Of a stretch of DNA of 62,172 nucleotides, positions 1 through 54,334 are shown piece after piece. A program made the translations under genes and the position numbers. Source of the DNA: a virus (lineage: Duplodnaviria; Caudoviricetes). The stretch's first letter is position 1; each line of letters opens with the position of its first letter. Where the stretch lies: positions 1-62,172 of the IMG/VR virus record IMGVR_UViG_3300037991_004042; one strand, 5' to 3'. Below the pieces are notes generated by a model, which was given only the letters and a program-made list of their open reading frames with translations, was not told the DNA's origin and ran no database searches.

Positions 1-98
1 TGTCCCATTGTAAGGAATCCAATGTGGTCAACCAAGTGAATTTTTGTGTGGTATCTTCTTGCAGACATACGAATTGACTCTACAACATTTTCGAAATC
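1..98. repeat. Terminal overlap with 62074-62171 (circular assembly)
   Basis: Bases 1-98 are identical to 62074-62171; only the last base of the window mismatches. One gene reads in frame through the junction. Confidence 0.95.
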
Positions 99-3934: not shown

Positions 3935-5209
3935 TTAATCATTTTTTACAAGCCAACTGAACATTGGTGCTTGTTCATTTAGTATAACATTGTATGGCGT
4001 ATTAGCCAGACAGGGCGCAGAAAACTGACAAGAATTGTATGATTGGCACTGTGGGTATCTCGCGACAATAGAGGAAGTATGTGCAACATCGCTAACCCTC
4101 TGTAATCTTTCTCTCATTGAATTAATACGATCCGCATAGATAAGATCTTCTTGTGCAGACTGTATAATCTGATCCATGGAGCAGGGTGCTTCGTGCATCT
4201 GTACATACTTGTAAGCTTCTGTCATAAGGTATTCTAGGTGTGTTTCATATTCCTCCAAGTTTAAGTTATTTTGTATTATGGATTTTTTGTATTGCCAGTA
4301 CGGGGCCGCTCTCTTTGCTGTACTGAGCTTGCCGGATGCAAGTAGTTTCGGCGGGCTAGGTGTTTTTGAGTGAGATATATCCCAGATAAAACCTGCTATA
4401 TTGCAACCCTTAAACTCTGTCATTGAGCCCTCTTCTATTTCATAACGAAGAAGATTCGCATAAGATTGTAACTGCATGTCAAACTTTAGTTTTGACTTGT
4501 ACATGTTTGGACTTCCAGATGTTTTATGATCCAAGATATACAAGTCTCCAGTAGACTTCTCTTGTAGTATTACATCAGCCTTACCAATCTTGTATACAGG
4601 CACATTCATTATGACAGTGTTCTCACCAGAGAACGCATCGTCAGATTGAATCATTACAATGTCAGAGTTTTCTTCATCATACAATGTTTGAACTACAACT
4701 GAAGTTGTGTATTGAGTTCCATCTTCTTGAAAGATTGGTTTTATAAGTTCTTTCTCTACTGCAACTATATTAAACCTTGAATGTATATTTTTCATCCAGA
4801 GATCAAACCATCCGTCAATCACATTTAATATTCGTTCCTTACAACTCTCTATCTCTTCTTCAAGAGCCATAATCTCATAGTTTCCATCGCACTTATTGTA
4901 AAACTCTTCTTCCAATTCATTTGCTTTATCTTTAAGTATATCCAGAAAGGTTTGGGATGTTGATATTTCAGGATCAAATCTAGATACATCTACAATAATG
5001 TTTTCAACTACAAGGTGAAACAGTGATCCGTAAACCAAAGACTTTTTAAATCCTTTCTCTTGATAACATTTAAAATACTTGTAGTACCAAAACTTGGTAC
5101 ATGCAGAACTCATAAACTCGGAATACGAATGGACGATAGATATTCCTAAACTTTTTATTCTATTGTAATCCTCATATCTTCTATACAAGAGAATTGGTTT
5201 AACTTCCAT
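3935..5209 (-). CDS. PD-(D/E)XK exonuclease, Cas4/AddB-like
   Basis: HSYSEFMSSAC, GSLFH, GKADV...ILDHKTS, MQLQSY and C-terminal CQSYNSCQFSAPC (probable Fe-S cysteines). Confidence 0.85.
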   Translation of the reverse strand: MEVKPILLYRRYEDYNRIKSLGISIVHSYSEFMSSACTKFWYYKYFKCYQEKGFKKSLVYGSLFHLVVENIIVDVSRFDPEISTSQTFLDILKDKANELEEEFYNKCDGNYEIMALEEEIESCKERILNVIDGWFDLWMKNIHSRFNIVAVEKELIKPIFQEDGTQYTTSVVVQTLYDEENSDIVMIQSDDAFSGENTVIMNVPVYKIGKADVILQEKSTGDLYILDHKTSGSPNMYKSKLKFDMQLQSYANLLRYEIEEGSMTEFKGCNIAGFIWDISHSKTPSPPKLLASGKLSTAKRAAPYWQYKKSIIQNNLNLEEYETHLEYLMTEAYKYVQMHEAPCSMDQIIQSAQEDLIYADRINSMRERLQRVSDVAHTSSIVARYPQCQSYNSCQFSAPCLANTPYNVILNEQAPMFSWLVKND

Positions 5210-5366
5210 TACAACTCCGGTTTATCATTTAATATAAATTATTAATTATGTTTTATTTGTTTTTTGTTTAGGATCATTAGTTGAATTATTTGCCCCCCCA
5301 GCCCCCCCATTATAGCAATACCGGCACCAATAGCAAGAACAAAGATGTCAAAGAAATGTCAAGAGA

Positions 5367-5416
5367 TTAATCTTTTTGATTAAGTTGTTGCTCACTTAAT
5401 CATTTTGTGCTATTGA
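5367..5416 (+). promoter_or_regulatory. Operator-like palindrome plus candidate promoter of the first early operon
   Basis: TTAATC-TTTTT-GATTAA at 5367-5383, followed by TTGCTC-17 nt-TATTGA with a TG extension. Confidence 0.55.
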
Positions 5417-5456
5417 ATTATTGAGCATGAAGCTCACGACATCATACGAGGTAAAC

Positions 5457-5912
5457 ATGAGAATTCGAGATTTGGCTTTGTTGAGATATAAATTTCTTTG
5501 TGAGGCAGCAGCATACAAAAGCGTAATTAATGATCTTAAGAATAAAGAGATCGAGGGATACGATTATGAAGATCAGATCCAGTATTCAGAAGACTTGGAA
5601 TACTTGAAGGCTGAATCAGTTCAGACTTGCATGACATTCCAAGAGCAGTATTCTAATGGATGTGTCACCCTTGGATATATCAGCCCTAAGACAGTTCAAG
5701 ATTGGAAAGTAGTTTACATGCCAGCATTAAACGCTGATGAATGTGAAGACCTTATAAGTGGTGAATTTTACACCGTTGAATATGATGAACTTGGAAGGAA
5801 GTCTGTATACAAAGAAGGCACAGACAAGAAATTAAATTTTGTTGAGTTTCACTGTTCAGACTTGGAACAAAGATACAGGGCGATTCTTTTGGACTATTTA
5901 AAAGACTTATAA
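5457..5912 (+). CDS. Hypothetical protein, first gene of early operon
   Basis: ORF; ATG 5457 is preceded by GAGG. Confidence 0.75.
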   Translation: MRIRDLALLRYKFLCEAAAYKSVINDLKNKEIEGYDYEDQIQYSEDLEYLKAESVQTCMTFQEQYSNGCVTLGYISPKTVQDWKVVYMPALNADECEDLISGEFYTVEYDELGRKSVYKEGTDKKLNFVEFHCSDLEQRYRAILLDYLKDL

Positions 5913-5934
5913 TTAAAATTTAGGAGCACCGAAA

Positions 5935-6126
5935 ATGATTTATTTATTCCAAACAAAAGAAGGGTTGATTGGCAAAGCCCAGAAAGGCAAAGACAAATTT
6001 TGGGAGATTCAGATTAATGGCAAGCCTTACCACTGGTTCGGTGGAACGGTTGCCGATATGAAAAGAATGGTTTGTAAAGATTATCCAAATGCAACCTTCA
6101 GAAAAGTTTCAGCAAGAGGTAAGTAA
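5935..6126 (+). CDS. Hypothetical small protein
   Basis: AGGAG RBS; tightly packed operon. Confidence 0.7.
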   Translation: MIYLFQTKEGLIGKAQKGKDKFWEIQINGKPYHWFGGTVADMKRMVCKDYPNATFRKVSARGK

Positions 6127-6434
6127 TGAGTAAATCAAGAACACCTCTTAAGAAGTCAAGAGTTGCAATGGAAGTATCTATAGAAGAGTTTTCAGTCTAT
6201 GGCAAGCCTGAAATAATAATTATTCCCACATGGTGGGGAGGCTTTAAGTATCCAACTTATTCAATAAAACAAGGCTCTTTTGTCTGGTCTACAAGCAATA
6301 TGAGAAGACGAACATGGAGTTGGCTTTCGACCTGCTTAGAAGCATTATCGCAAGAAGAGAACCCACTACTGGTTCAAATGAAAGAAGACCTAATTTACAA
6401 ATTACATGAGGAAGGGCAAAATGATTACCTATAA
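6126..6434 (+). CDS. Hypothetical protein
   Basis: TAATG stop/start overlap; GAGG RBS. Confidence 0.7.
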   Translation: MSKSRTPLKKSRVAMEVSIEEFSVYGKPEIIIIPTWWGGFKYPTYSIKQGSFVWSTSNMRRRTWSWLSTCLEALSQEENPLLVQMKEDLIYKLHEEGQNDYL

Positions 6435-6696
6435 AGTATACTCAGCATATGGATTTATAAACTTAAGAACTTGTAATGAAGAAAATGTCTTAGAAGAAGT
6501 TCAAGCCGCTGTTGGCGGCTTGGTGGAAGTGGTTCAAAGAGAAAATGTTGTAGTCGCTCCAATTGCAAATGTAAAAGATGACCACATATTTATTGTTAAT
6601 GAAGAAGGATTATTTGTACCCAACAAAATGAGAAATCCATACTTCCCAAATTTATTTGGAACCGTGGTTGTCATGAAGAGTGAGGATTTCAAATAA
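6421..6696 (+). CDS. DUF3846-like protein
   Basis: LEEVQAAVGGLVEVV...FIVNEEG...RNP...LFGTVVV pattern. Confidence 0.7.
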   Translation: MITYKVYSAYGFINLRTCNEENVLEEVQAAVGGLVEVVQRENVVVAPIANVKDDHIFIVNEEGLFVPNKMRNPYFPNLFGTVVVMKSEDFK

Positions 6697-7025
6697 TGAT
6701 TACTCCAATTAAAATAGAGGCTGGAAGCAATTCAGCTAAAGTCGATAACAGTACCTTTGTAATAAAAACACATTCAGACACGGGTTGGATTGAGAACCTT
6801 GGTTCGGACTCCATCTATTACATAAAACTACCTCAAAGCCTCGGTGGTCAAAGGGTCTCCGTGGTGCGGCTATATGATGTTGTGTGCCCTGTTTGCAAGG
6901 TGGTGCATGTATCAGCCGAATTAGACCATTGCATTGACGAGCGGCCTGTATGCGTAATGGAGTGCCCCGAACAACAAAACTTTATCTTCTACAAGAAACG
7001 AATAGATCCAAACAACAGGGATTAG
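6696..7025 (+). CDS. Hypothetical protein, possibly Zn-binding
   Basis: TAATG coupling; CPVC...H...CVMEC. Confidence 0.65.
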   Translation: MITPIKIEAGSNSAKVDNSTFVIKTHSDTGWIENLGSDSIYYIKLPQSLGGQRVSVVRLYDVVCPVCKVVHVSAELDHCIDERPVCVMECPEQQNFIFYKKRIDPNNRD

Positions 7026-7027
7026 TC

Positions 7028-7219
7028 ATGGAAATAACAAGAGCAGATTTCTTCTCATACTTAGAAGTTCAAGAGTCAGGAAAAACAAATATGCTTGCCG
7101 TATACAAAGTCAGTGAACTTTCAGGACTTACGGAAGAACAAGTAATTTACATAATAAAAAATTACTGCAAGCTTTTCGATAAGCATGTTGGCAATCACAT
7201 CCTTGGTAAGGAAAGATGA
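7028..7219 (+). CDS. DUF5049-like small protein
   Basis: EVQESGKTNML motif; start ATG 7028. Confidence 0.6.
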   Translation: MEITRADFFSYLEVQESGKTNMLAVYKVSELSGLTEEQVIYIIKNYCKLFDKHVGNHILGKER

Positions 7220-7635
7220 AGACATTTTACTTTCAAGAAGAGCGGATCAAATTCTATAAAAAAAGATTGGATTTGATACAAAAAATAATACTCCAGTGTA
7301 TAGATGTTGGATGGACTAAATACATAGAAAGTGACTTACAAGTTGAGTTTATTCTAGACAAGAAGCATATAGTATTCACGAATCATGTATTGAATTCATT
7401 GCATGAAAGATGGAGTTGTTCAGCAGTTGGAATATTATCTTATCTTTCATCGACTGAAAAAGACCACGACTCACAATATAAGTTTATAAAAACATACTTT
7501 AAAAGGAGCAAAATCGAAGGGACAAACATGCACAAAGTTCAAGAGTTGGAGTTAGCACCAGAAGAATCTACTTTAGACATGGACGAAATAATGCTGATCT
7601 TAGAAGAAGATGAATACGAAATAATACAACTTTAA
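7216..7635 (+). CDS. Hypothetical protein
   Basis: ATGA overlap; AAGGA RBS. Confidence 0.7.
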   Translation: MKTFYFQEERIKFYKKRLDLIQKIILQCIDVGWTKYIESDLQVEFILDKKHIVFTNHVLNSLHERWSCSAVGILSYLSSTEKDHDSQYKFIKTYFKRSKIEGTNMHKVQELELAPEESTLDMDEIMLILEEDEYEIIQL

Positions 7636-7654
7636 ACATAGGAAAGACAAAGCA

Positions 7655-8032
7655 ATGAAAGATCAAATAAGCGAAATAGAACAAGCACGAATCGATATTT
7701 GTAAACATGTTATTGATGTGATTTATGGTCGGTGGAGCCATGCAAGACCTAAATTAATACCCCAAACTAATTCTAGAGATACTCATGTTGAGATTATTTA
7801 TTCAGCAGATATTGGTTCTCTTAATGTTTACGAGCGGCAAAAATATGAAGATGATATTCGCAAAGCTTACAGACGAAGATTGAATTCGAGCCCAAGACTA
7901 AGTGATCTTGAATTTGAAATTAAGGTTTGGGCAGAATGCGAAAGAGTTGAAATACAAATACAGCTTTTAGGCTGTCTAGAAGATTGGAGAATAACAAAAT
8001 TAAAGATCAAGCCACAAAGGACAAAACAATGA
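7655..8032 (+). CDS. Hypothetical protein
   Basis: ORF in a packed operon. Confidence 0.7.
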   Translation: MKDQISEIEQARIDICKHVIDVIYGRWSHARPKLIPQTNSRDTHVEIIYSADIGSLNVYERQKYEDDIRKAYRRRLNSSPRLSDLEFEIKVWAECERVEIQIQLLGCLEDWRITKLKIKPQRTKQ

Positions 8033-8226
8033 CTGCCAAAACAGAAAAACAACTTTTCGCATATACAAAAAGTCTACAGAGCAAAACAAAAGAAGAACTC
8101 AAAGACTTAGTGAAGTCTTGGAAAAAACTATTCGCTGAACACACTGAAGCAGGAAGGGAAGCAACCGCATTTAAGTGTTTAAGATTTGGACTCGCAGCTT
8201 GGGACGAACTTCAAACACGCCGATAA
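8029..8226 (+). CDS. Hypothetical protein
   Basis: ATGA overlap; AAGGA RBS. Confidence 0.65.
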   Translation: MTAKTEKQLFAYTKSLQSKTKEELKDLVKSWKKLFAEHTEAGREATAFKCLRFGLAAWDELQTRR

Positions 8227-8252
8227 ACTATCTACTTAAACCGAGGAACAAA

Positions 8253-8540
8253 ATGAAATTTGAAACACTACCATATTATGCCCGTAAGGGAACAAGCATT
8301 CCAAGAAAGGAATTATTCAATAACTTAAAGAGACTTTACTTGCAGAAGAGTGGAATGACAAAACAAGACTTGGCTGCACAACTAGAAGTATCTCCACAGT
8401 ATCTTTGCATGTGGGCCTCTATAACGAACAAGCGAAACCCGCCTCTATGGTCGATTATAAGGCTCTGCTCTTGGCTTGACTGCCATATATTGATTACTCC
8501 GGATACGGTCAAAATACAACAAAACGAAAGCGATTATTAG
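8253..8540 (+). CDS. XRE-family helix-turn-helix regulator
   Basis: SGMTKQDLAAQLEVSPQYLCMW...RNPPLWSIIRLCSWL; GAGG RBS before ATG 8253. Confidence 0.8.
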   Translation: MKFETLPYYARKGTSIPRKELFNNLKRLYLQKSGMTKQDLAAQLEVSPQYLCMWASITNKRNPPLWSIIRLCSWLDCHILITPDTVKIQQNESDY

Positions 8541-8548
8541 AGGTAAAA

Positions 8549-9220
8549 ATGAACAAGTCTATTACAGATAAAAAACTTAGTTGGATGCTTCAGCGTCTAA
8601 GAAAAAATTCAGCGAAAGAAGAAATAATAAATTCAAGCAAGACTATTCCAATACTAGAATTTATATGCAGCATCTACGATAGTGTAGATCCAGTGGTAAG
8701 GATGCAGTTAATTCAGTTTATAAATAATAATATATTTGATACAAGCGTTCTGAAAAAGCACTTCCTTGAAGAGCAAAGACAAAACTTCTTTGAGGGACTT
8801 GTAGAATCAACCACATGCCCAACCTGTGATCGGCATGCGAAGATATACAAACGAAAGCTCAGCAGCAACTCAATAAGGTTTCTAACCTCATTAATACAGC
8901 AGAACTCTTTGAAGAAAGAACCAGTCCATTACAAGGAATGTAATTTTGGGAGCAGAGACTATCCAGCATTACGGTGGTGGGGCCTTGCTCAAACATACAA
9001 GGATTCCAACCCAAAGAAGAACTGGTCAGGCTATTGGATTCCAACAGATAAAGGTATTGAGTTTGCAAAGTCTGAAATAAGAATACCTAAATATTTATAT
9101 ACTTATAATGGTGAGGTCATCGACATTGAGGTTGAAGACGAAACGCCAGAAATTTACATTACAGACATAATCGGAGAAAACTTTGATTATTTGGAGTTAA
9201 TGAAAGAATCAAGTTTTTAA
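8549..9220 (+). CDS. Hypothetical phage protein (CPTC motif, possible winged helix)
   Basis: GAGG RBS; TCPTCDRHAKIYKRKL...LRWWGL...GYWIPTDKG. Confidence 0.7.
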   Translation: MNKSITDKKLSWMLQRLRKNSAKEEIINSSKTIPILEFICSIYDSVDPVVRMQLIQFINNNIFDTSVLKKHFLEEQRQNFFEGLVESTTCPTCDRHAKIYKRKLSSNSIRFLTSLIQQNSLKKEPVHYKECNFGSRDYPALRWWGLAQTYKDSNPKKNWSGYWIPTDKGIEFAKSEIRIPKYLYTYNGEVIDIEVEDETPEIYITDIIGENFDYLELMKESSF

Positions 9221-9231
9221 GAATTAAAATA

Positions 9232-9253
9232 ATGCCTTTTAAATAAAGGGCAT
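9232..9253 (+). terminator. Hairpin after the early operon
   Basis: ATGCCTTT...AAAGGGCAT inverted repeat; weak U-tract. Confidence 0.4.
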
Positions 9254-9257
9254 CTAT

Positions 9258-9284
9258 TTGACACGAATTAATTATTGATATAAT
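9258..9284 (+). promoter_or_regulatory. Sigma70-type promoter with no downstream ORF
   Basis: TTGACA (9258-9263) and extended -10 TGA-TATAAT (9276-9284); the spacer is only 15 nt. Confidence 0.7.
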
Positions 9285-9290
9285 TAATAT

Positions 9291-9385
9291 TTGAATACAG
9301 GAAAACTGTATTCGTCCTAGATAAGGTTATAAGAGTTTAGACTCTTGGGAATTGGGAGTGGTTACCCAATTCCTTTCCTTATTTT
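9291..9385 (+). ncRNA. Candidate trans-antisense sRNA targeting the 50467 leader
   Basis: Own promoter, three hairpins and a terminal GGAATTGGG/CCCAATTCC stem with U-rich tail; 9315-9340 is complementary to 50435-50459. Confidence 0.6.
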
Positions 9386-9392
9386 AGGCTGT

Positions 9393-10718
9393 TTAAACCG
9401 TTGGTTTTACATACTTGTATGGATGGTCATTTGGAAGTCTAGGCCATGTTGCATACTTCTGAGCAAGATAACCTTCAAGCTTTTGTCGTTCTCCAGACCC
9501 TAACTTACCGCTTACCAATATGATTTCTGCGACATCACCGTCAAAGTAATTAGCGGATGCTGCTGATCCAATAGTTAAAGAATCTGAGTTTGCATTATCA
9601 CAAGTAACAGAAGTTGTAACTCCAGCACTTCCATCAATATAAAATCCTTCGCCTGAAACGATACCTACTATCTGAGCGACATTATTAGTTAGGCTTGCGT
9701 CTGCCGAATAAACATTTGTTGTACCCACAAAGTGCGCAGCGTCATTAGCAACACCAAGACTGTCTTCAACACCAAACTTGTAATTAGCACCTTTACCCAA
9801 AAGGCTTTGAGTTGAGCTTCCAAATGTTGGAGACATAAGAGCAAAGATTGTTATATCAGACCCCGCACTAATATCCAATGTACTATCATCAGGAGCAAGG
9901 AGAGTACTGCTAGCACCATCAAATCGTAAGATTGTAAGACCATTGATCGCAGATCCCACAGCAATCGGCTCAGAGCCCGATGTAGACGATAGATCATTAG
10001 TATTCCCTGAAGAGTCTGACCATGCAGTTACAGTTGTTCCAGTAACTCCTGCTTGTGCATTATACCACGCCATAAGCGTTAGGCCAGCCCCAGCAATATT
10101 TATTGGAGTCCAATCCGCTGGTGCTTCGCCATCAGATGTATATTCCAATACAGCAAAGTTATCCAAGTAAACTGTTCCTGAGCTTACAAGTATTCCAGCG
10201 TCACCACTTGTCAGTCTGTTAGCATTTGTATCACCAGTGCTAGCAACAATGTTGTCATCTAAAAGCAATTGTAAATTTACAGGATTTGTTCCATAACAAC
10301 GCATTTCAATTGTATGCTTTGGCCCTTTAGAAACATTATTTGAGTTTAATTTTGCATCTACAAGAGTTGTCTCTTCATTGCTTACTCTTCTAATAATCTT
10401 TACACTGTTGTCATTCTCTGAGAATTGTCCAATATAACAGTCATATGCTTCTTCTGGAGCACCTTGATAGTTACTTGCTCTTGAGATAAGGCCGAGAGTT
10501 CCGCTTGCAAATTCAGATGTGTTAGGCCAAGCATAATCCATTTTGGTGGAGTAATGAACCGCTGAGAACGCAGTAGAGGTTCCAACAATTTGTGTAAGAT
10601 AGTCCTCTGTAATTGCAGAGACGCCAGCAGCACCAACAAGAACCCTTCCAGTTAGAACCCCAGTTGGGTCGTCAATAGCACCCCAGCCACTTGATCCTTT
10701 CCAATTACTTTTAGACAT
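9393..10718 (-). CDS. Virion protein with concanavalin A/LamG-like lectin domains
   Basis: AWYNA...WSDSSGNTNDL...ILRFDG...YFDGDVAEII...ERQKLEGYLAQKY pattern; last gene of the structural operon. Confidence 0.7.
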   Translation of the reverse strand: MSKSNWKGSSGWGAIDDPTGVLTGRVLVGAAGVSAITEDYLTQIVGTSTAFSAVHYSTKMDYAWPNTSEFASGTLGLISRASNYQGAPEEAYDCYIGQFSENDNSVKIIRRVSNEETTLVDAKLNSNNVSKGPKHTIEMRCYGTNPVNLQLLLDDNIVASTGDTNANRLTSGDAGILVSSGTVYLDNFAVLEYTSDGEAPADWTPINIAGAGLTLMAWYNAQAGVTGTTVTAWSDSSGNTNDLSSTSGSEPIAVGSAINGLTILRFDGASSTLLAPDDSTLDISAGSDITIFALMSPTFGSSTQSLLGKGANYKFGVEDSLGVANDAAHFVGTTNVYSADASLTNNVAQIVGIVSGEGFYIDGSAGVTTSVTCDNANSDSLTIGSAASANYFDGDVAEIILVSGKLGSGERQKLEGYLAQKYATWPRLPNDHPYKYVKPTV

Positions 10719-10726
10719 ATTATCTC

Positions 10727-11080
10727 CTAGCGATTATCGCCCTCGCCATCTATTTTATTTCTAGATTCGCGATCCTTTAATTTTAATATATTTATGTTTG
10801 CTATTTCTTCTAAATCATATCCTAACTCAGATGAAAGCGCAGAAATGTACCAAAGAACATCTCCAAGCTCTTTTGCTATTTGATCTTTATTTTCTTCTAT
10901 ATAATCAAACTTATTCTTTCTAATTCCCTTTTTTATCTTTTCAGACACTTCTCCGGCTTCGCCGATTAATCCAAGAGAGACATAGGCAAATTTAGCAACC
11001 CAGTCGTTTCTCGGATATATTGCAAGCTTTTGCTGCTCGATTTGATACTCTTGAAAACTCTTCACTTTATCTCCATACAT
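10727..11080 (-). CDS. mazG: MazG-like nucleotide pyrophosphohydrolase
   Basis: LGLIGEAGEVSEKIKK...KELGDVLWY...NILKLKDR. Confidence 0.9.
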   Translation of the reverse strand: MYGDKVKSFQEYQIEQQKLAIYPRNDWVAKFAYVSLGLIGEAGEVSEKIKKGIRKNKFDYIEENKDQIAKELGDVLWYISALSSELGYDLEEIANINILKLKDRESRNKIDGEGDNR

Positions 11081-11414
11081 CGTCTATGTGTTCTTCGTCT
11101 ATGTGCTCTTCATCTTCGGAAAAGAAACATTCAGAAGAATCATCTTCTTCATTTGTAAGATCAACATTGCTGTCTTGTTGCTCTTGGACTTCTTCAACCT
11201 CTTCAATTTCACTGCCTATTGAAATATGAGATATTTTAGAATTTTGCAATATTATCTCGTCAATTTTAAATTGCGAAAAGATTGGATCACTGAGTGAAGT
11301 TACACCTTTAAAATGTGTTCGCTCTTTATACTCTTTTGATATTTCATAAGAGTCAGCAGCAACAGGAATTGTGTCTGGAGAATTTCCAAATCTAACATAT
11401 GCAATTACTTTCAT
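11067..11414 (-). CDS. Hypothetical protein with acidic tail
   Basis: ORF; probable start MKVIAY at 11414. Confidence 0.65.
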   Translation of the reverse strand: MKVIAYVRFGNSPDTIPVAADSYEISKEYKERTHFKGVTSLSDPIFSQFKIDEIILQNSKISHISIGSEIEEVEEVQEQQDSNVDLTNEEDDSSECFFSEDEEHIDEEHIDDVWR

Positions 11415-11435
11415 TAAGACTTCCAAAAATAAAGA

Positions 11436-11469
11436 ATCCCGCTGCATAATATATATCATGCAGCGGGAT
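11436..11469 (-). terminator. 12-bp stem hairpin after the fibre gene
   Basis: ATCCCGCTGCAT/ATGCAGCGGGAT followed by a T-rich run on the - strand. Confidence 0.7.
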
Positions 11470-11489
11470 AAAGTGTACTAATTTATTGA

Positions 11490-12719
11490 TTACTTGATAT
11501 AGTCAACCTGAATCAGGTCGTCACTTTCAAGCGCAGCACCGAATGTGATTGTACCATTAGCGGCAACACTGTATTCAGTGTTATCACTTGGAGAAGGATT
11601 AGCACGAAGACGCTGACCGTTTCTAAATACACAAACACCTTCAAGGAAGTTTGCATTAACAGCATGGGTAAGAGATACGCTTGTACCACTTTGTCCAGTA
11701 AATTCTTCATATACTGGACGCCATGATTGCTTTGCAAGACCAAGAGAATTGTCTTTTACTTGAAGATTATTTGAATCAATTTCAATCGTTGAGTTATCAA
11801 CTTGAACTTCAATAGCACCACTATTATAATCAAGAGCACCACCAAGATCGGTTTGAAGATCACCAGAAGCATCGAAAGAAAGTCCTTTAGAACTTGCAAG
11901 AATAACTCTGATAGCACCACTGGAAAAATCAAGACCATAAGATGTGTCAAGATTTACAGCAATTGCACCACTTGAAAATACAACACCTTTGGCAGTGTCA
12001 ATCTTAGCTTCTAAATTTCCAGTACCGCTCTCAAAGCCCAAACCAGAAGCTGCTTTCAGTTTAGCTTGAATAGCACCACTAGCTCCGAATTCCAGACCAG
12101 CAGCAGTATTAATCTTAGCTGCAAGTTCTGTACCGCTTATCTCAAGACCACTATTGGCCTTAAGGTCAACGCTAATTTCATTTCCACTTTTCTGAAGACC
12201 GTCACCAGCAGTTACTTGTCCAAGACCAGTGAACTGAGTGAATGAAATGTCTGTAGATCCGACGGTAACAGAGTCATTGGTACAAACATATCCTAAGTCT
12301 GCGCTTACAGTTCCTTGCTTAATAAATACTGCGGATCCCGGAAATTCAGCATCTGCATCCATGTCATCGGCTCGTGACCAAGCACCAGCAGCACAAACAT
12401 AGATACCGTTCTCTTTTGCATCAGTTTGATCTTTTACAAGAACTCTATCGTTAGCAGTTACAGCAATACCGTCAATCGTTTGGGTTCCTGAAAGAGTAAT
12501 GTTTGCAGTAGTAGCAACTTCACAAGCATCTTTCCAGAAAGCACCTTGTAAAACTCCATCAACATATGCTTTGTTAGCAGCATCAGTAGAGCCAACAGGG
12601 GCCGAGCATCGGAGGAGAGCAGATCCAGATCCAAAGTCATAGGTTCCTGCTTGGAGGTGAATTTTATCAGCAGTAACCGAATCATCTTTATACTGCGGGG
12701 TTCTAAATTGAATAGCCAT
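11490..12719 (-). CDS. Fibre protein (head or tail) with beta-spiral-like shaft repeats
   Basis: DAANKAYVD, WKDACEVATTANITLSGTQTIDG...RVLVKDQTDAKENGIY domain, then repeated GL-x-F-xx-G-x-(I/L) units. Confidence 0.8.
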   Translation of the reverse strand: MAIQFRTPQYKDDSVTADKIHLQAGTYDFGSGSALLRCSAPVGSTDAANKAYVDGVLQGAFWKDACEVATTANITLSGTQTIDGIAVTANDRVLVKDQTDAKENGIYVCAAGAWSRADDMDADAEFPGSAVFIKQGTVSADLGYVCTNDSVTVGSTDISFTQFTGLGQVTAGDGLQKSGNEISVDLKANSGLEISGTELAAKINTAAGLEFGASGAIQAKLKAASGLGFESGTGNLEAKIDTAKGVVFSSGAIAVNLDTSYGLDFSSGAIRVILASSKGLSFDASGDLQTDLGGALDYNSGAIEVQVDNSTIEIDSNNLQVKDNSLGLAKQSWRPVYEEFTGQSGTSVSLTHAVNANFLEGVCVFRNGQRLRANPSPSDNTEYSVAANGTITFGAALESDDLIQVDYIK

Positions 12720-12847
12720 ATTATAAGCTCCTATTATGTCTATTTGTTAAAATATACCAACCAATGATTGGCGGGTATGTATTCTATATACGAAAACTTA
12801 TACCTATGACCAGTGCCCACAACAAGGACTTGACTTGATCTCAATTT

Positions 12848-13711
12848 CTAGGCAGGAGAATAATCTACAACTATTCTATCCCCAGCAATAGTAGCTTCTG
12901 AGAAGTTGAATTGAGTATTATTTAGTTCTGTAATTGTTGAAGAATCTTGTCTCTGACCATTCCAATAGACTCTTAGTGTGCCGCTTGCGTATTCATTAGA
13001 CAATGTAAATATTCCGGTTGAAGATCCAGCTTGGCTAGACAAATCTTCTTTCTGTAAATCTGATCCACCAGAAGATGGGGTTGGACTTGTGCCTTGAGGC
13101 CATCCTTGGTCAAAAGTTTCAGTTTGACCCAACTTGTAAGATGTTTGATTGTCCCAGTTATCGTATCCTTTTTCGCCAAAATAAGATGTCGATATGGTTG
13201 TGCCCGCACCAGAATACCAGCCATCATAACCCGCATCTGTAAACTCTTCCTTTCCTATAAATCCAGAAGCATACCAGCCAACGCTATCATTGGTTACAAA
13301 TCTCTCACTTGTAACAGTTAGTCCAGTTGTCATTGTTACAGAAGCGTGAAGAACGAGATTATAGTTCCTTGAAGAGTCAACCTTGTCTACTTCTGTTACG
13401 CGATTTACAACATCAATAATAGTATTTGAGCTTGTATCAAGCCTGTGCTGAAACATTCCTGCAACTGCAATATTCGATGTTGTAACTCTTTTATTTGCAA
13501 GATAAGCCAATGCCCGAGCAACAGAGTCAGGGTCGTGAACAGATACAGCAACATCATCAGACTCATTCAGTTCAAGATCGTCAAATGAGGTAGAGTCAAC
13601 AGGTGTTCTAATCTCTGCTGGAAGATTATAAGCCAGTTGATCTCTTAAATCTGAGAAAACAGTATTCAATTGTGCTGCGGTATAGCTTGTACGGTCTATT
13701 GTCAAAGGCAT
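12848..13711 (-). CDS. Putative virion structural protein
   Basis: Position in the tail module; C-terminal domain shared with the fibre protein. Confidence 0.65.
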   Translation of the reverse strand: MPLTIDRTSYTAAQLNTVFSDLRDQLAYNLPAEIRTPVDSTSFDDLELNESDDVAVSVHDPDSVARALAYLANKRVTTSNIAVAGMFQHRLDTSSNTIIDVVNRVTEVDKVDSSRNYNLVLHASVTMTTGLTVTSERFVTNDSVGWYASGFIGKEEFTDAGYDGWYSGAGTTISTSYFGEKGYDNWDNQTSYKLGQTETFDQGWPQGTSPTPSSGGSDLQKEDLSSQAGSSTGIFTLSNEYASGTLRVYWNGQRQDSSTITELNNTQFNFSEATIAGDRIVVDYSPA

Positions 13712-14163: not shown

Positions 14164-15804
14164 TTAAAATGCTCTTGCAATATTTTCATAAAGAAACCAA
14201 AATCTGAGAGTAAGAATTACTTCACCTTTTTTATAGGAGATTCCAGTAACAGTTGCAATTCTTTCTGTAAATCCAAGCTCGTGATCGGTGATCTTTATAT
14301 TATCACCTATCTTCACAAATATAAAGATAGAAGGGAAACATTGATACTGAACTTCATATGATGGTAAGGACAAATGTGCCGCCATCCAGTCTAGAACATA
14401 CTCAACGCTATTGTCGTCATAGTGTACAACAGACTCAAGTATTTCATTTTCTCGCAAGCCAATTCTGTCTCTGGATATGGCACAAAATTCAGAATTAGAA
14501 CTGTCTCTAGTTTTTACTTTTCTGTAGTTATCATTGACAGCATCATAATCGTATTTGATAGTGAAAGAATTGTATATGTCCTCTTTTCCTAATTCAGAAA
14601 TAGAGGAGATTCTATCAACGATGTATTCTTGACCAACTACAAAGTTACCAGAGAACACTTCTGATCTTCTATCTATTACAACTGGAGCATATCCAATGCC
14701 AGAGAAGGCCATGCTTATCATTGGAAATGATTCGCATATTGTGCTCTCTATATACTGGAAAGTATCAACAGCCTGTGAGGAACTGTCATTGATAATGACC
14801 TGCCCAAATATATTTCCAAGCTTAGAATATGATCTAGACAACAAGTCCTTGTCTATTAAATTATAGTTATATTTCGAGTAGTTAGCAATCAGGTTTACAA
14901 TTGTGTTTAATATGTCACTTTGTTGATTGTCTATTCTACTTACCCGAGCATATACAGATTCGTCTTCCCAAACATTAGGAATACCAGCATTATTTGTTGT
15001 AAGCTGAAAGTCTATGTTCAAGTATGGCGTGTTAGTTTTTTCTGTATACTTTATTGATGATGACCATGCGTAAAATGGATCATTAGAAGCTTTGTCAACA
15101 CCATCTACATTTACAGAATCAATTTGAAATTCTGTTCCATAACACACAACAAATTCTGGCCCGTATTGAAATGCAGATTTACGAATACAAGGTATTCCTG
15201 TAGAGGATTTGTTTATAACTATTGGTATTCTTTGACCTTTTTGATCATCAGGAAGCGTGGATATTTCTTCTGAATTTAAAATTACATCTGGAATAATAAT
15301 TGGAAATGTTTTCTTGGGGTCTGCTATTTCTAACTCTACAAGTTCATCAAGAGCACCAAACACACAGTTTCCGGATATATCTCCTCTGAGAACAATTATT
15401 CTATCTGAATAAGATCCATCTCTTATCTGTAAGCTTACTTCTGCAAATCCACTTATGTGACTGCCGCTTAATACCATTGACATGGCGTCAACAAATCTTC
15501 CGTCTACGGTAAGGGGAAATGACCTTACAGAGGCTGCGCCACTAGACAGAGTTATCGAACTATCTATTTGCGGCTCAGACTGCAATAATGGCTGATAAGA
15601 GTATATCTTTCCATCATCATCAGTAGTCTGTATAAAATCAGTTGCAATAGATAACTTCTTTCCATTTCCGAAAACAAGATCAATACAAACAAATAGATCC
15701 GAAAGAATTGGATCTTTGTTTATTTGTGTCTTCCAGTAATTAGAGAGGCTTGTATTTTTGCCGTCCGCTGGAAATACAATATCTAGTAAATCCTTGAACT
15801 TCAT
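14164..15804 (-). CDS. Tail tip/hub protein
   Basis: Second large ORF after the tape measure; C-terminal VKIGDNIKITDHELG...VTGISY is typical of tail hub proteins. Confidence 0.65.
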   Translation of the reverse strand: MKFKDLLDIVFPADGKNTSLSNYWKTQINKDPILSDLFVCIDLVFGNGKKLSIATDFIQTTDDDGKIYSYQPLLQSEPQIDSSITLSSGAASVRSFPLTVDGRFVDAMSMVLSGSHISGFAEVSLQIRDGSYSDRIIVLRGDISGNCVFGALDELVELEIADPKKTFPIIIPDVILNSEEISTLPDDQKGQRIPIVINKSSTGIPCIRKSAFQYGPEFVVCYGTEFQIDSVNVDGVDKASNDPFYAWSSSIKYTEKTNTPYLNIDFQLTTNNAGIPNVWEDESVYARVSRIDNQQSDILNTIVNLIANYSKYNYNLIDKDLLSRSYSKLGNIFGQVIINDSSSQAVDTFQYIESTICESFPMISMAFSGIGYAPVVIDRRSEVFSGNFVVGQEYIVDRISSISELGKEDIYNSFTIKYDYDAVNDNYRKVKTRDSSNSEFCAISRDRIGLRENEILESVVHYDDNSVEYVLDWMAAHLSLPSYEVQYQCFPSIFIFVKIGDNIKITDHELGFTERIATVTGISYKKGEVILTLRFWFLYENIARAF

Positions 15805-49646: not shown

Positions 49647-50340
49647 AGAAAGCGTAAAAAACCAGAAAAAATTTTCTTGAGGTAGCTATTTATCTACTGT
49701 ACAGTAGACATTTTTAGCACGAAAATAATTATTCCAAGGGGTGGGGTAGGGGTTGACGGGTAAATGGTGACGGGTCAAGAGTTGAAGGTTGATTAGCCAG
49801 AAAGTACTGAATGTTTATTCAGTGTTTATTGTCATTATCAATAAGTGTGTTTATTGATAACGGTGAAATTCAGTTTTCAAAAACGGCTGAAAAGGTAGGT
49901 TGAACCTGCATTCTTGTCCTAGCATATGCCTCCCTGTCTATATACCTTTTGACCTTAAAACCCGTCAGAATCGATTTATGGGCCGGTTCCGTTGATTGTT
50001 GCTTTTTGGACAAAAAAAGACCGACTTATTTTGCCAGCCTAGCAAATGCTCTTGGTAGGTCAAGACAAAACGACGATAGCAATTTCACCCTTGCAAAGGT
50101 TGAAGTGGTGACAAGAGTAATTCAACACTTGCAAACCTGATCGGGAATGATCCCCCAATTCCGATCGGGGTTGACATGCAAAGAGTACTCCCCCCTTTTT
50201 TATTAGAAGAACCGCACCCGCACGAAGGCGTGAAATAATCAAGGTTGAACCTGTAATATCAGCCTGTTTTTTTTGGTGCCTATTTCCGGATCATAATTCG
50301 TGATCGGCTACGATGCCGATCATACCTTGATCTCTTCAAA

Positions 50341-50408
50341 AACTTAATCAAAATGATTAAAAAACAGTAGCCAAATCTTGTAAACATGGAATTACAAAGT
50401 TATTGAAT
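50341..50408 (+). promoter_or_regulatory. Operator-like palindrome plus candidate promoter of gene 50467
   Basis: TTAATCA-AAA-TGATTAA at 50344-50360, then TTGTAA-17 nt-TATTGA. Confidence 0.55.
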
Positions 50409-50466
50409 ACTTGCGGGGCCGGTCTGCTCTGCGCTAACCTTAAACTCTATTATCTAGGAGCCTATC

Positions 50467-51630
50467 ATGACCAATCAAACCAATAACACCACAACCACGA
50501 CCTCGGCGTCAACCTTTAAACTGAGTCTCATGTCTTGGAAGAGCACGGGGCTTTATGATTTGAGTGAAATCAATACTATCATTGAAGCCCTAACTTCAAC
50601 GGATAGGGGCCGAATTGTCTACGGTAAATTGTCAGCACTTCAATTCAATAATGGGCATAGTGTCGCAGCAAATGCTAGCACGATGATCCGAAATGACGAG
50701 ACGATTGCCGACCTCTATGAGATCAAGCATATCGCCAAGGGTCAAAATGACAACGGTGAACGGTGCGGGCACTTTGTCCTTTCCAAGGGATATGCTGTAC
50801 ATCTTGACGACAAAGGAGTTGCAAGTAACAAGATCCAATTGGAAATCGAACAAACAATTGGCTACACGATCACTCGTGATTTTGATACGGGCGAAATGAC
50901 TTACAAATTCCACGGTCAATTCTCCGACTTCATACAAGAACACTTAGAAGCTGCTGTTACTAAGTTCAACGGTAATGATGTTAAGCAAATGCTTATCGAT
51001 CCCGTGATCAAGGGCTTTAAAATGATGAGATATGGCGGATCCGGTGTATATGTGACACCGACCGACTTGGAGCCCCCTAAGAGACGATTCCTAGGATTGT
51101 TAGAAGATCACCTTGGGGATCTACTTCCTGAATTCGGATTTGACAAAGTTGTGGTCAATGAAGACGACGCTCGCCAAGTAAAGAAGGCTTGTAAATCTTT
51201 ATTGGGTGGGCTTGAAAGTCGTATGGCAGAAGCTTTACAAGTGGTTGATAAATTGCAACACCAAGATGATTATGGAAAGCGGGAAGTAAGCAGCAAAGCA
51301 ATAACTAAAGCCTTTCGACAAATCTCAGATATGCAACAGCAAATTTATATGTATGAAGACCTTATGAATATGAAAAAAGATCTAACAGAGTCACGAATTT
51401 CCTACATAAGCGAGATGTTGGAAAAGGGACACGCAAGAGTAACCCAAATCAAAGAAGATCAAAAAGCTCGATTGTCTGCAAAGCAATCGCAGCCTTCAGC
51501 CCGCAAAAGTAAAATGCAAGCCTTACAAGCGGAAAAAGATGCGGCCCTGCTAGCACAAGAGGAATTGCAAGCACAATTAGCGGCAATGCAAGCACAATTG
51601 GCAGCCCTAACCGCTCAAGCTTCCAAGTAA
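50467..51630 (+). CDS. DUF6744/DUF3150-like protein with C-terminal coiled coil
   Basis: AGGAG RBS; FNGNDVKQML...MRYGGSGVYVTP motif recalled from that family; family call is tentative. Confidence 0.55.
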   Translation: MTNQTNNTTTTTSASTFKLSLMSWKSTGLYDLSEINTIIEALTSTDRGRIVYGKLSALQFNNGHSVAANASTMIRNDETIADLYEIKHIAKGQNDNGERCGHFVLSKGYAVHLDDKGVASNKIQLEIEQTIGYTITRDFDTGEMTYKFHGQFSDFIQEHLEAAVTKFNGNDVKQMLIDPVIKGFKMMRYGGSGVYVTPTDLEPPKRRFLGLLEDHLGDLLPEFGFDKVVVNEDDARQVKKACKSLLGGLESRMAEALQVVDKLQHQDDYGKREVSSKAITKAFRQISDMQQQIYMYEDLMNMKKDLTESRISYISEMLEKGHARVTQIKEDQKARLSAKQSQPSARKSKMQALQAEKDAALLAQEELQAQLAAMQAQLAALTAQASK

Positions 51631-51650: not shown

Positions 51651-51677
51651 AAGGGGACTCGCAAGAGTCCCCTTTTT
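51651..51677 (+). terminator. Intrinsic terminator
   Basis: AAGGGGACTC-GCAA-GAGTCCCCTT-TTT with a GNRA loop. Confidence 0.9.
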
Positions 51678-51947: not shown

Positions 51948-52235
51948 TTAATTGTCTCTTATCTTATTTTTTGATTGCGGAACAGAATCAACCGGCAAGA
52001 ATTGTTCGTCCTTGCAAATGCGCATCATCTCAAACAAGTCGGGTATAAACAATTCTACTGTAACTGTATCGTATCCACACTCATTCGATGAGCAGCGACG
52101 CCTTCTAACTATATAATCGCTTGAATACCAATCGATCAGAACAGCGGCCTTAGAACGCAAGTATGTGCGTGTATTATCATCCTTTGAAGATGTGTTTATA
52201 ACTTTAAACTTTGAACCACATCTAGGACATTCCAT
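51948..52235 (-). CDS. NrdR N-terminal-like Zn-ribbon protein
   Basis: MECPRCGSKFKVINTS...VRRRRCSSNECGYDTVTVE; no ATP-cone. Confidence 0.7.
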   Translation of the reverse strand: MECPRCGSKFKVINTSSKDDNTRTYLRSKAAVLIDWYSSDYIVRRRRCSSNECGYDTVTVELFIPDLFEMMRICKDEQFLPVDSVPQSKNKIRDN

Positions 52236-52596: not shown

Positions 52597-52947
52597 TTGG
52601 AAGCCTTTTCAGGCGAGTCGCGATTTGGCGTTTTTGGTGCTGTATTCGTGTTCAGTAAAAGATCCGGACACAAGACAATAATTGTCCAAAGCGATCCCAA
52701 TTGTCAGAAAGATGTCAAGAAATGACCATTTTTCATGCGTTCAGCATGTCAATTAAACAATACAATGATAATTTGAGATTAGGCAATTACGCCGATCAAA
52801 CCTACCATGCGAGCGACCCATGACCTTATCAGATCTTGCAACTTTAATTCATGAGTGGACTGTAATAGTTCACTTCGAAACGATTTTTGCTGTAGCACTA
52901 ACAGCAATTGTCTTAATCATTCCAACCCTCAAAGTACAGGAGTAATC

Positions 52948-54333: not shown

Positions 54334-54334
54334 A

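What the first reader, a model, noticed from the sequence alone, without database searches (positions are those of the whole stretch)
9258..9385. sRNA candidate A is complementary to the ribosome-binding site of gene 50467
TCCTAGATAA (9315-9324) is the exact reverse complement of TTATCTAGGA (50450-50459, includes SD AGGA). AAGGTTA (9323-9329) pairs with TAACCTT (50435-50441). AGAGTTTA (9332-9339) pairs with TAAACTCT (50441-50448). Together they cover almost all of the 25 nt up to and including the SD. The unit has the best consensus promoter I found in the genome but no ORF.
Basis: partly seen in the sequence, partly recalled or inferred. Interest (0 to 1): 0.82.

Follow-up and report, generated by a model that had tools for sequence, protein, structure and literature searches.

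The report
Probable phage small RNA, target unproven
An uncultured marine phage carries what looks like a small non-coding RNA gene with its own strong promoter and terminator; it may block translation of another phage gene by pairing with that gene's ribosome-binding site, but the match is only modestly better than chance.

Summary

**The unit is probably real.**
- 9258-9385 holds the only perfect TTGACA/TATAAT pair in the 62-kb phage genome. The spacer is a short 15 nt, with a TGn extended -10.
- Downstream lies a ~95-nt stretch that folds far better than shuffles (z -4.9), then a + strand intrinsic terminator.
- It has no credible ORF and no Rfam match.
- A distant relative (L003) has the same promoter block at the same place, a diverged ~85-nt hairpin RNA and a terminator.

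So a stand-alone sRNA gene is likely (about 0.65-0.7).

**The target is plausible but not shown.**
- Null tests gave p from 0.53 to 0.001, depending on the statistic.
- The three pairings cannot all form at once.
- Net folding energy ranks this site 4th of 89 start regions.
- Equally good sites exist elsewhere.
- No RNA data were available.

This is a new member of a known kind: a phage base-pairing sRNA that works like P1 c4.

The parts
9232..9253 (.). 9-bp hairpin (loop AAAT) just after the stop of gene 8549-9220. It is followed by CTATTT on + and by TATTTTAA on -. It is the likely terminator of the upstream + operon and, by inference, of late - strand read-through.
   Evidence: Sequence; fold -11.0 kcal/mol. 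Its 5' half is absent in L003.
9249..9273 (+). Conserved promoter block GGCATyTATTTGACAyGAATTAATT.
   Evidence: It occurs once in the window even with up to 3 mismatches allowed. Its 25 nt are the same in L003 apart from two pyrimidine changes (C/T). In the alignment the wider block is 30 of 33 aligned columns identical, while the rest of the spacer is unalignable.
9258..9263 (+). -35 hexamer TTGACA.
9276..9284 (+). Extended -10, TGaTATAAT, with a 15-nt spacer to the -35.
9291..9385 (+). Inferred ~95-nt transcript. The start is inferred from the -10 and the end from the U-rich tail.
   Evidence: MFE -34.7 kcal/mol, z -4.88, 0 of 200 shuffles as good. No + strand ORF of 30 aa or more starts between 9221 and 9344. 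No Rfam family.
9293..9313 (+). 5' hairpin GAATACAG-GAAAA-CTGTATTC.
   Evidence: The only strain variation in the unit (G9301C plus loss of one A at 9302) falls in its loop (X6 record 9 and X7 record 18).
9315..9324 (+). Proposed seed UCCUAGAUAA (anti-SD).
   Evidence: Exact complement of 50450-50459. Mean unpaired probability is 0.44-0.71, depending on the assumed 3' end.
9331..9346 (+). Small hairpin AAGAGU-UUAG-ACUCUU. Its 5' arm holds the second block AGAGUUUA (9332-9339).
9347..9385 (+). Intrinsic terminator: a 10-bp stem, an 8-nt loop, then UUUCCUUAUUUU.
   Evidence: It is the only terminator-like site found in 8500-10000. On the - strand no T run follows the stem (read).
50337..50360 (.). 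Operator-like palindrome upstream of gene 50467, shared with 5367-5390.
50435..50459 (+). Leader segment complementary to the sRNA in three blocks: 50450-50459, 50441-50448 and 50435-50442.
   Evidence: Mean unpaired probability is 0.65-0.76. The leader has no significant structure (z 0.03).
50467..51630 (+). Proposed target gene, 387 aa, with its own terminator at 51651-51674. It is DUF6744-like by inference and lies upstream of MoxR-type AAA+ (52855-54333) and vWA (54269-55672) genes.
   Evidence: It has no Pfam or PHROG hit of its own. A distant homologue in L006, next to MoxR and vWA genes, hits DUF6744 at E 3.5e-7 and 29.9 bits against a cut-off of 27. Terminator.

Best explanation
9258-9385 is a stand-alone gene for a ~95-nt non-coding RNA of an uncultured marine phage.

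**Shown at sequence level.**
- Transcription would come from a host sigma-70-type promoter with an extended -10.
- The RNA has a 5' hairpin, a ~17-nt mostly single-stranded linker that carries an anti-Shine-Dalgarno motif (UCCUAGAUAA), a small second hairpin and an intrinsic terminator.

**Inferred.**
- It acts in trans as a base-pairing regulator.
- Its best candidate phage target is the leader of the monocistronic DUF6744-like gene 50467.
- The 10-nt seed would nucleate on UUAUCUAGGA, covering AGGA of the SD seven bases before the ATG.
- Pairing could then extend by opening hairpin 2 (AGAGUUUA with UAAACUCU) to 18 bp. That would keep 30S subunits off the start site and so shut down that gene.
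- This is the logic of P1/P7 c4 RNA, but from an unlinked locus 41 kb away in the record (about 21 kb the other way round the circle).
For: **The unit.**
- Unique perfect hexamers with TGn.
- Structure z -4.88.
- A terminator on the + strand only.
- No ORF, no tRNA or tmRNA and no Rfam family.
- The upstream gene has its own hairpin, so the unit is not simply its 3' UTR.

**Conservation.**
- In L003 the neighbouring protein is 63% identical and the region is collinear with window 4229-13106.
- There the promoter block is 30 of 33 identical.
- It is followed by a diverged ~85-nt RNA: a 5' hairpin that also begins GAAUA, a pyrimidine anti-SD loop UUUUUCCUCUU, and a + strand terminator. Its z is -4.14.
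- In a 98.3%-identical strain, the only change between 9221 and 9392 is in the loop of the 5' hairpin.

**The target.**
- The seed is an exact 10-mer over the SD, with a colinear 8-mer.
- 50467 is the top start region by longest match, by gapped score, by block cover and by raw duplex energy.
- Gapped score p=0.027.
- Block cover p=0.001 against shuffles and 0.004 against natural 34-mers.
- The leader is unstructured and accessible.
- The gene has its own operator-like palindrome and its own terminator, so it is a separately controlled unit.

**A parallel in L003.** Its sRNA loop holds an 11-nt perfect complement (UUUCCUCUUAG) of the RBS of the first gene (1327) of the conserved early operon.
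Against: **Weak or failed tests.**
- There is no expression evidence. No RNA run holds the phage, so the transcript is inferred from sequence only.
- The spacer is 15 nt, not 17, and the -10 is not conserved in L003.
- By hybridisation energy the match is ordinary: 53% of shuffles do as well.
- A 10-mer alone arises in 17% of shuffles.
- After paying for intramolecular structure, the net gain is -9.2 kcal/mol, 4th of 89.

**Rival sites.** Equal or better complementary sites exist:
- the - strand mRNA 30485-30515 (cover 25, -28.5 kcal/mol);
- the + strand 52202-52229 (colinear, -26.4 kcal/mol);
- the - strand 15536-15582 (-27.2 kcal/mol).

**Limits of the supporting evidence.**
- The favourable block statistic was chosen after the fact, and it counts blocks that cannot pair together.
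- The seed's 3' half can pair with the RNA's own U-rich tail. Its unpaired probability falls to 0.06 for 9319-9326 if the RNA ends at 9385.
- The L003 match is not significant by itself (p=0.16). That loop also pairs with another SD, at 2917, so it may be a generic anti-SD.
- The substitution rate in the unit equals that of the flanks (2 events in 128 nt against 17 in 929 nt).
- The seed sequence itself is not conserved in L003.
- In L002 (TerL 90%) the homologous leader keeps only CTAGGA.
Confidence: 0.3

Rival explanations
1. It is a real sRNA, but 50467 is not its physiological target. It would act on host mRNAs (host unknown) or on other phage RNAs. Candidates are the + strand RNA at 52202-52229, the late glycosyltransferase mRNA at 30485-30515, or several Shine-Dalgarno sites as a general anti-SD.
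For: - All the evidence for the unit applies here too.
- Target statistics are weak by energy.
- Other sites are as good or better.
- The 52202-52229 site is fully colinear (9 + 4 + 10 bp, -26.4 kcal/mol).
- The body of the RNA is not conserved in L003, while an anti-SD pyrimidine motif is. The L003 loop pairs with two different SDs.
- Many described phage sRNAs act on host transcripts (passages of the review PMC12197685).
Against: - Among 89 start regions, 50467 is the best by four sequence measures.
- Its block cover is rare for natural 34-mers (0.4%).
- The 30485-30515 and 15536-15582 sites lie deep inside coding regions, where occlusion of initiation cannot work.
- It is not known whether 52202-52229 is transcribed on the + strand.
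- The host is unknown, so host targets cannot be examined.
Confidence: 0.35
2. The stretch serves mainly as a boundary between the convergent early (+) and late (-) operons. Its hairpins would stop or stabilise the flanking transcripts. The inward-facing promoter would act by transcriptional interference or collision with late read-through, or would make an RNA whose only role is to be antisense to the late 3' UTR. There would be no trans target.
For: - The unit lies exactly between the convergent genes 8549-9220 (+) and 9393-10718 (-).
- On the - strand neither the terminator stem nor the 5' hairpin is followed by a T run. Late transcripts would plausibly read through the whole unit to the 9232-9253 hairpin, which is followed by TATTTTAA on - (read).
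- In L003 the same terminator also ends the upstream + operon and overlaps the 3' end of a small - strand ORF.
- What is conserved between the two phages is the promoter and the terminator, not the RNA body.
Against: - A boundary does not need a perfect, conserved promoter.
- The window has a separate hairpin for the upstream operon.
- The RNA is more structured than a terminator alone needs: it has two extra hairpins.
- Block complementarity to the 50467 leader is rare.
Confidence: 0.2
3. It is not a functional unit. A promoter-like string in AT-rich spacer DNA sits next to an ordinary terminator, and the complementarity is coincidence.
For: - No transcript has been observed.
- The spacer is 15 nt.
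- AT-rich DNA yields promoter-like strings (6 found against 4.7 expected).
- 37-nt look-alikes of the promoter block occur in unrelated metagenome contigs (records 10, 19, 20) and in a giant-virus MAG coding region.
Against: - With TGn, 0 of 100 shuffles give such a promoter.
- The 25-nt block is the same in L003 apart from two pyrimidine changes, while the surrounding spacer has diverged beyond alignment.
- Both phages keep a + strand terminator 85-95 nt downstream, with significant folding.
Confidence: 0.1

Closest known systems
c4 antisense RNA of phages P1 and P7 (the P4 CI RNA is similar, from memory)
   Same: It is a short structured phage RNA that represses a phage gene. Short complementary segments, lying in exposed parts of the RNA, pair around the ribosome-binding site (passages of the review PMC12197685). 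Here the segments are 10 and 8 nt.
   Different: As I recall, c4 is processed from the same transcript, just upstream of its target. Here the RNA has its own promoter and terminator and lies 41 kb from the proposed target. There is no sequence or structure match to any Rfam family. Function is untested.
Trans-encoded base-pairing sRNAs of prophages and phages (DicF, Esr41, and the sRNAs of the quorum-sensing vibriophage)
   Same: It has its own promoter, a Rho-independent terminator, no ORF, a short seed, and imperfect pairing at the 5' UTR or RBS of an unlinked gene. DicF and Esr41 are described in passages of PMC12197685. The vibriophage work is only a reference in that review's list (Sprenger et al. 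2024), which I did not read.
   Different: Those have experimentally shown transcripts and targets, mostly host mRNAs, and known chaperone dependence. Here the host, the chaperone, expression and the target are all unknown. The proposed target is a phage gene.
Cis-antisense phage RNAs (lambda OOP, P22 sar)
   Same: It is a small phage RNA from a strong promoter at an operon boundary, ending at a terminator. These are cited in the reference list of PMC12197685.
   Different: Those overlap their target gene on the opposite strand. In the window the unit ends at about 9385, before the stop codon of the convergent gene at 9393-9395, so it overlaps no coding sequence.

Membership tests
Trans-encoded base-pairing sRNA (generic class) | Independent transcription unit: own promoter and intrinsic terminator, about 50-300 nt. 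| tested here: met
   Met at sequence level only. Promoter, terminator, inferred length about 95 nt. The positional homologue in L003 keeps both.
Trans-encoded base-pairing sRNA (generic class) | Non-coding: no conserved ORF with a start signal. | tested here: met
   No + strand ORF of 30 aa or more starts in 9221-9344. The 52-aa TTG frame at 9345 starts inside the terminator stem. No shared frame was seen with L003 (by eye).
Trans-encoded base-pairing sRNA (generic class) | The RNA is actually made and stable. | not testable with these tools
   No listed run is on record as RNA.
Trans-encoded base-pairing sRNA (generic class) | An accessible seed whose complementarity to the target exceeds chance and is conserved or covaries in relatives. 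| tested here: inconclusive
   Seed unpaired probability is 0.44-0.71. p ranges from 0.53 to 0.001 by statistic. No relative shows both loci. L003 has a different seed, with an 11-nt match to a different RBS at p=0.16.
P1/P7 c4-type antisense RNA | Encoded on the same transcript, directly upstream of the repressed gene, and released by processing (recalled). | tested here: not met
   It has its own promoter and terminator and lies 41 kb from the proposed target.
P1/P7 c4-type antisense RNA | Sequence and structure similarity to the family model (as I recall, Rfam holds a C4 model). | tested here: not met
   0 Rfam matches at gathering scores in the whole window. At E up to 1 in 9200-9420, the only match is a sub-threshold U7 hit on the - strand.
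P1/P7 c4-type antisense RNA | Two short segments complementary to the target around its RBS. | tested here: met
   10-nt and 8-nt colinear blocks; the first covers AGGA of the SD.
Cis-antisense RNA | Overlaps its target gene on the opposite strand. | tested here: not met
   The terminator tail ends at about 9385 and the convergent gene's stop codon is at 9393-9395. In L003, a possible overlap with the 3' end of a small - strand ORF was seen.

The most novel reading that the evidence does not exclude
The phage runs an RNA-based early shut-off. Each operator-controlled early transcription unit would have its own dedicated anti-RBS sRNA:
- candidate A for the DUF6744-like gene 50467;
- candidate B for gene 5457;
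- in L003, the A-locus RNA for the first early gene, 1327.

The sRNAs would be neutralised late, when read-through of the late operon produces their full antisense. Seeds and RBSs would co-evolve, giving each phage lineage its own specificity, much like heteroimmunity.
Probability: 0.1. Interest if true: 0.7.

Novelty: new member of a known kind. Interest (0 to 1): 0.35.

Why it matters
Phage sRNAs that regulate phage genes in trans are known from only a few cultured model phages. This phage lineage has no cultured relative: TerL identity to GenBank phages is at most about 25%.

If the RNA is real, it would do two things:
- It would add a post-transcriptional layer to gene timing in an abundant type of uncultured marine phage.
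- It would give an experimental handle on the unexplained DUF6744 / MoxR-AAA+ / vWA module, because the sRNA would be a natural switch for it.

As it stands, it is a well-formed prediction whose target is not established.

Tried and rejected
**Searches for relatives that would show both the sRNA and the target**
- Single-protein scans of viral contigs with the 441-aa, 387-aa and 223-aa proteins found none.
- The exact 25-nt sRNA core found none in viral contigs.
- Alignment A1 found none in viral contigs or genome contigs.
- The C-run motif found none in viral contigs.
- The promoter pattern gave one hit, L005, inside a giant-virus MAG. I judged it chance, because it lies in an AT-rich coding-like context.
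- TerL gave L002, a 9.4-kb fragment with the target side only.
- TerL also gave L006, a 17-kb contig binned in a Pseudomonadota MAG. A1 and the 387-aa protein were not found in that MAG.
- A1 in metagenome contigs gave L003, which has the sRNA side only.
- It also gave L004, a 1.3-kb contig where the gene is followed by other + strand ORFs and no such unit.
- The search for homologous proteins found only near-identical copies of the 387-aa protein, and two relatives at 60-63% identity of the 223-aa protein.
- blastn and tblastn against GenBank phages found no close relative.
- Earlier scan notes held no look-alikes.

**Expression**
- No RNA holder was listed. This is neither for nor against expression.
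- Read laying used DNA contigs only, and parts of the stretch had no cover in X7 and X11.

**Readings considered and rejected**
- A tRNA, tmRNA or known RNA family.
- A riboswitch or leader: there is no downstream + strand gene.
- A small protein gene.
- A U7 snRNA hit: 16.5 bits against a gathering score of 34, E 0.2.

**Limits**
- I did not test the pairing claims for candidates B and C.
- Supplementary files were not consulted.
- Of papers, I saw the listing and passages of PMC12197685. P1 c4 processing, P4 CI and the Rfam C4 model are recalled.

Full report
**What the window is.** It is an IMG/VR virus record of 62,172 nt. Its first 98 nt recur at its end (family D1), so it is a circularly assembled or terminally redundant phage genome.
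- GC content is about 38%.
- It encodes a GpA-type large terminase, MazG, a MoxR-type AAA+ ATPase, a vWA protein and long structural genes.
- The exact protein of gene 8549-9220 is on record from 12 contigs, with marine sources among them. All sequencing runs that hold the stretch are marine metagenomes except X6, which is labelled organism A.
- No cultured relative exists in the GenBank phage set: TerL identity is at most about 25%, and blastn found nothing.

**The observation.**
- TCCTAGATAA (9315-9324) is the exact reverse complement of TTATCTAGGA (50450-50459), which includes AGGA of the AGGAG Shine-Dalgarno. The ATG is at 50467.
- AGAGTTTA (9332-9339) complements TAAACTCT (50441-50448).
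- AAGGTTA, really TAAGGTTA (9322-9329), complements 50435-50442.
- Written as one strand, the sRNA reads A-C-B while the reverse complement of the leader reads A-B-C. Blocks B and C therefore cross and cannot pair in one duplex.
- The physically possible forms are A+B (18 bp, a 7x1 internal loop, -17.0 kcal/mol) or A+C (a 10-nt bulge, -14.1 kcal/mol). The 10-mer alone gives -11.8 kcal/mol.

**The unit itself.**
- TTGACA (9258-9263) and TATAAT (9279-9284) are the only perfect hexamer pair in the window with a 14-19-nt spacer (7 of 100 shuffles have one).
- With the TG at 9276-9277 it is an extended -10, which 0 of 100 shuffles give.
- The spacer is 15 nt, shorter than the 17 nt that sigma-70 prefers (established knowledge). 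That is why the consensus scan, which asks for 16-18 nt, missed it.
- The 95 nt from about 9291 fold into a 5' hairpin (9293-9313), a linker, a small hairpin (9331-9346) and a terminator hairpin (9347-9374) with a U-rich tail. The MFE is -34.7 kcal/mol, z is -4.88, and 0 of 200 shuffles fold as well.
- No + strand ORF of 30 aa or more begins before 9345. There is no tRNA or tmRNA and no Rfam family.
- Gene 8549-9220 has its own 9-bp hairpin at 9232-9253, so the unit is not just that gene's 3' UTR.
- On the - strand neither the terminator stem nor the 5' hairpin is followed by a T run, while the 9232-9253 hairpin is (TATTTTAA). I therefore infer that late - strand transcripts from the long structural operon ending at 9393 read through the unit in antisense. 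This is inference from sequence only.

**Relatives.** Few could be reached.
- *L003* is 8.6 kb of a 63.8-kb metagenome contig. Its neighbouring protein is 63% identical, and the locus is collinear with window 4229-13106.
  - At the same position it has the block GGCATtTATTTGACAtGAATTAATT (30 of 33 aligned columns identical). The remainder of the spacer is unalignable.
  - About 85 nt follow. They form a 5' hairpin that also starts GAAUA, with an 18-nt loop UUUUUCCUCUUAGUUUUU, then a strong + strand terminator. z is -4.14.
  - The two terminator stems, if homologous, differ by two double (compensatory) changes and two single ones. This is my reading.
  - Promoter, size and architecture are thus kept while the body is not, as is common for sRNAs.
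- *L004* (60% protein identity, 1.3 kb) has no such unit after the gene.
- *A 98.3%-identical strain* was seen in run X6 (record 9; 18 substitutions and 1 gap over 1101 nt).
  - It has 10 changes in 8800-9220 and 7 in 9393-9900.
  - Between 9221 and 9392 it has only G9301C plus the loss of one A at 9302, both in the loop of the 5' hairpin. X7 record 18 shows the same.
  - This fits the fold, but the rate equals that of the flanks, so it proves little.

**Is the target match more than chance?** I called 75 genes crudely and took 89 candidate start regions, from -40 to +20.

| Measure (34-nt region 9313-9346) | Observed at 50467 | How often the null does as well |
|---|---|---|
| Raw duplex energy | -20.2 kcal/mol, best of 89 | 53% of 300 shuffles |
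| Longest perfect complement | 10 nt, best of 89 | 17.4% of 1000 shuffles |
| Gapped colinear alignment | score 26, best of 89 | 2.7% of 1000 shuffles |
| Order-free cover by exact words | 23 of 34 nt, best of 89 | 0.75%, 0.1% and 0.05% of 2000 shuffles (k = 6, 7, 8) |
| Same cover, natural 34-mers of the genome as pseudo-seeds | 23 of 34 nt | 0.4% of 3000 |

- With the whole sRNA and intramolecular folding paid for, the net gain at 50467 is -9.2 kcal/mol, 4th of 89 (mean -3.6, sd 2.5).
- The three start regions ranked above it are 52570, 55065 and 52948. The first and third are small frames in a mostly non-coding stretch, and the second is an internal start.
- Genome-wide, other sites are as good or better:
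  - the - strand RNA 30485-30515 (cover 25, -28.5 kcal/mol, deep in the 951-aa gene);
  - the - strand 15536-15582 (-27.2 kcal/mol);
  - the + strand 52202-52229 (-26.4 kcal/mol), which is fully colinear at 9 + 4 + 10 bp.
- Genome-wide, shuffles reach a cover of 23 or more in 3% of 2000.

My reading is that the relation to the 50467 leader is probably not pure chance, but the case is moderate.

**Context that favours the target.**
- The leader around the RBS is unstructured (z 0.03) and mostly unpaired (0.65).
- The seed is 0.44-0.71 unpaired, depending on the assumed 3' end. Its 3' half can pair with the RNA's own tail.
- Gene 50467 has an operator-like palindrome upstream that is shared with the other early promoter at 5367-5390 (I15; note e1-6339807). 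It also has its own terminator at 51651-51674.
- The early promoter and operator region at 5357-5430 is conserved in L003 at 1198-1280.
- In L003 the RBS of the first gene behind that region (CTAAGAGGAAA, ATG at 1327) is an 11-nt perfect complement of the L003 sRNA loop.
- That parallel is suggestive, but it is not significant alone: 16% of 1000 shuffles of this T-rich RNA reach 11 nt. The same loop also pairs with the SD of the gene at 2917 (-23.1 kcal/mol), so it may be a generic anti-SD.
- In L002 (TerL 90% identical) the diverged homologue of gene 50467 keeps only CTAGGA before its start.

**What the target gene is.**
- The 387-aa protein has no Pfam or PHROG hit and only near-identical database relatives.
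- A distant homologue in L006 (BLASTP E 0.007 over 153 aa) sits beside MoxR and vWA genes and matches DUF6744 above Pfam's cut-off (E 3.5e-7, 29.9 bits against 27).

**Comparison with what is known.**
- It would work like P1/P7 c4 RNA, with short exposed segments pairing around an RBS (passages of PMC12197685).
- It would also work like trans-encoded sRNAs of prophages and phages (same review; listing).
- It is not a member of the c4 family. It has its own promoter, is unlinked to the target, and has no Rfam match.
- It is not a cis-antisense RNA in the window, because the unit ends before the convergent stop codon.

**Verdict.**
- A real, newly seen sRNA gene is likely, at about 0.65-0.7 summed over the first three explanations.
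- Repression of gene 50467 at its RBS is the best single phage target, but it is unproven (0.3).
- It is a new member of a known kind, of moderate interest.

Noticed in passing
window 5296-5317; L003 1116-1137: An unusual C7-AG-C7-ATTATA motif (G7-CT-G7 on the other strand) in AT-rich DNA is identical in both phages. It sits upstream of a conserved early promoter and operator block (window 5357-5430, L003 1198-1280). An exact search of IMG/VR found no other copy.
   Followed up: partly
window 49647-50466; L002 5650-6400: The 820 nt between TerL and gene 50467 hold no ORF above 63 aa. Although they have diverged beyond blastn, they keep short blocks shared with L002, for example AAAAGGTAGGTTGAACCT and ATCGATTTA..GG..GTTC.GTTGATT. 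This could be a packaging site, an origin or a structured RNA.
   Followed up: partly
window 51948-52235 (-) and 52202-52229 (+): A 95-aa zinc-ribbon ORF has Ogr/Delta-like and NrdR-like hits below cut-off. It sits alone on the - strand in a 1.2-kb mostly non-coding stretch. Its first codons (MECPRCGSKFK) resemble the sRNA seed region, so the + strand RNA there is colinearly complementary to the sRNA (9 + 4 + 10 bp, -26.4 kcal/mol).
   Followed up: partly
window 9252-9290: 37-nt look-alikes of the promoter block (6 differences) occur in other contigs of two marine runs, and those contigs run on unlike on both sides (records 10, 19, 20). This is either a shared promoter type or an AT-rich chance match.
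   Followed up: no
L003 4781-5050 (-): L003 has an extra small HTH-like ORF between the sRNA unit and the virion-protein gene. Its last ~15 codons run through the + strand terminator hairpin.
   Followed up: no
Its terminator arm holds TTATCTAG, the complement of candidate A's CTAGATAA. I did not test its pairing claims.
   Followed up: partly
window 50467 and 50530: One gene call for this record starts the target protein at 50530 (366 aa), while the other eight cluster members are 387 aa. Only the 50467 ATG has an AGGAG 6 nt upstream.
   Followed up: partly
window 1-98 and 62074-62171: A 98-nt exact terminal direct repeat shows that the record is a circular assembly or a terminally redundant genome, although it is labelled linear and 85% complete.
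   Followed up: partly
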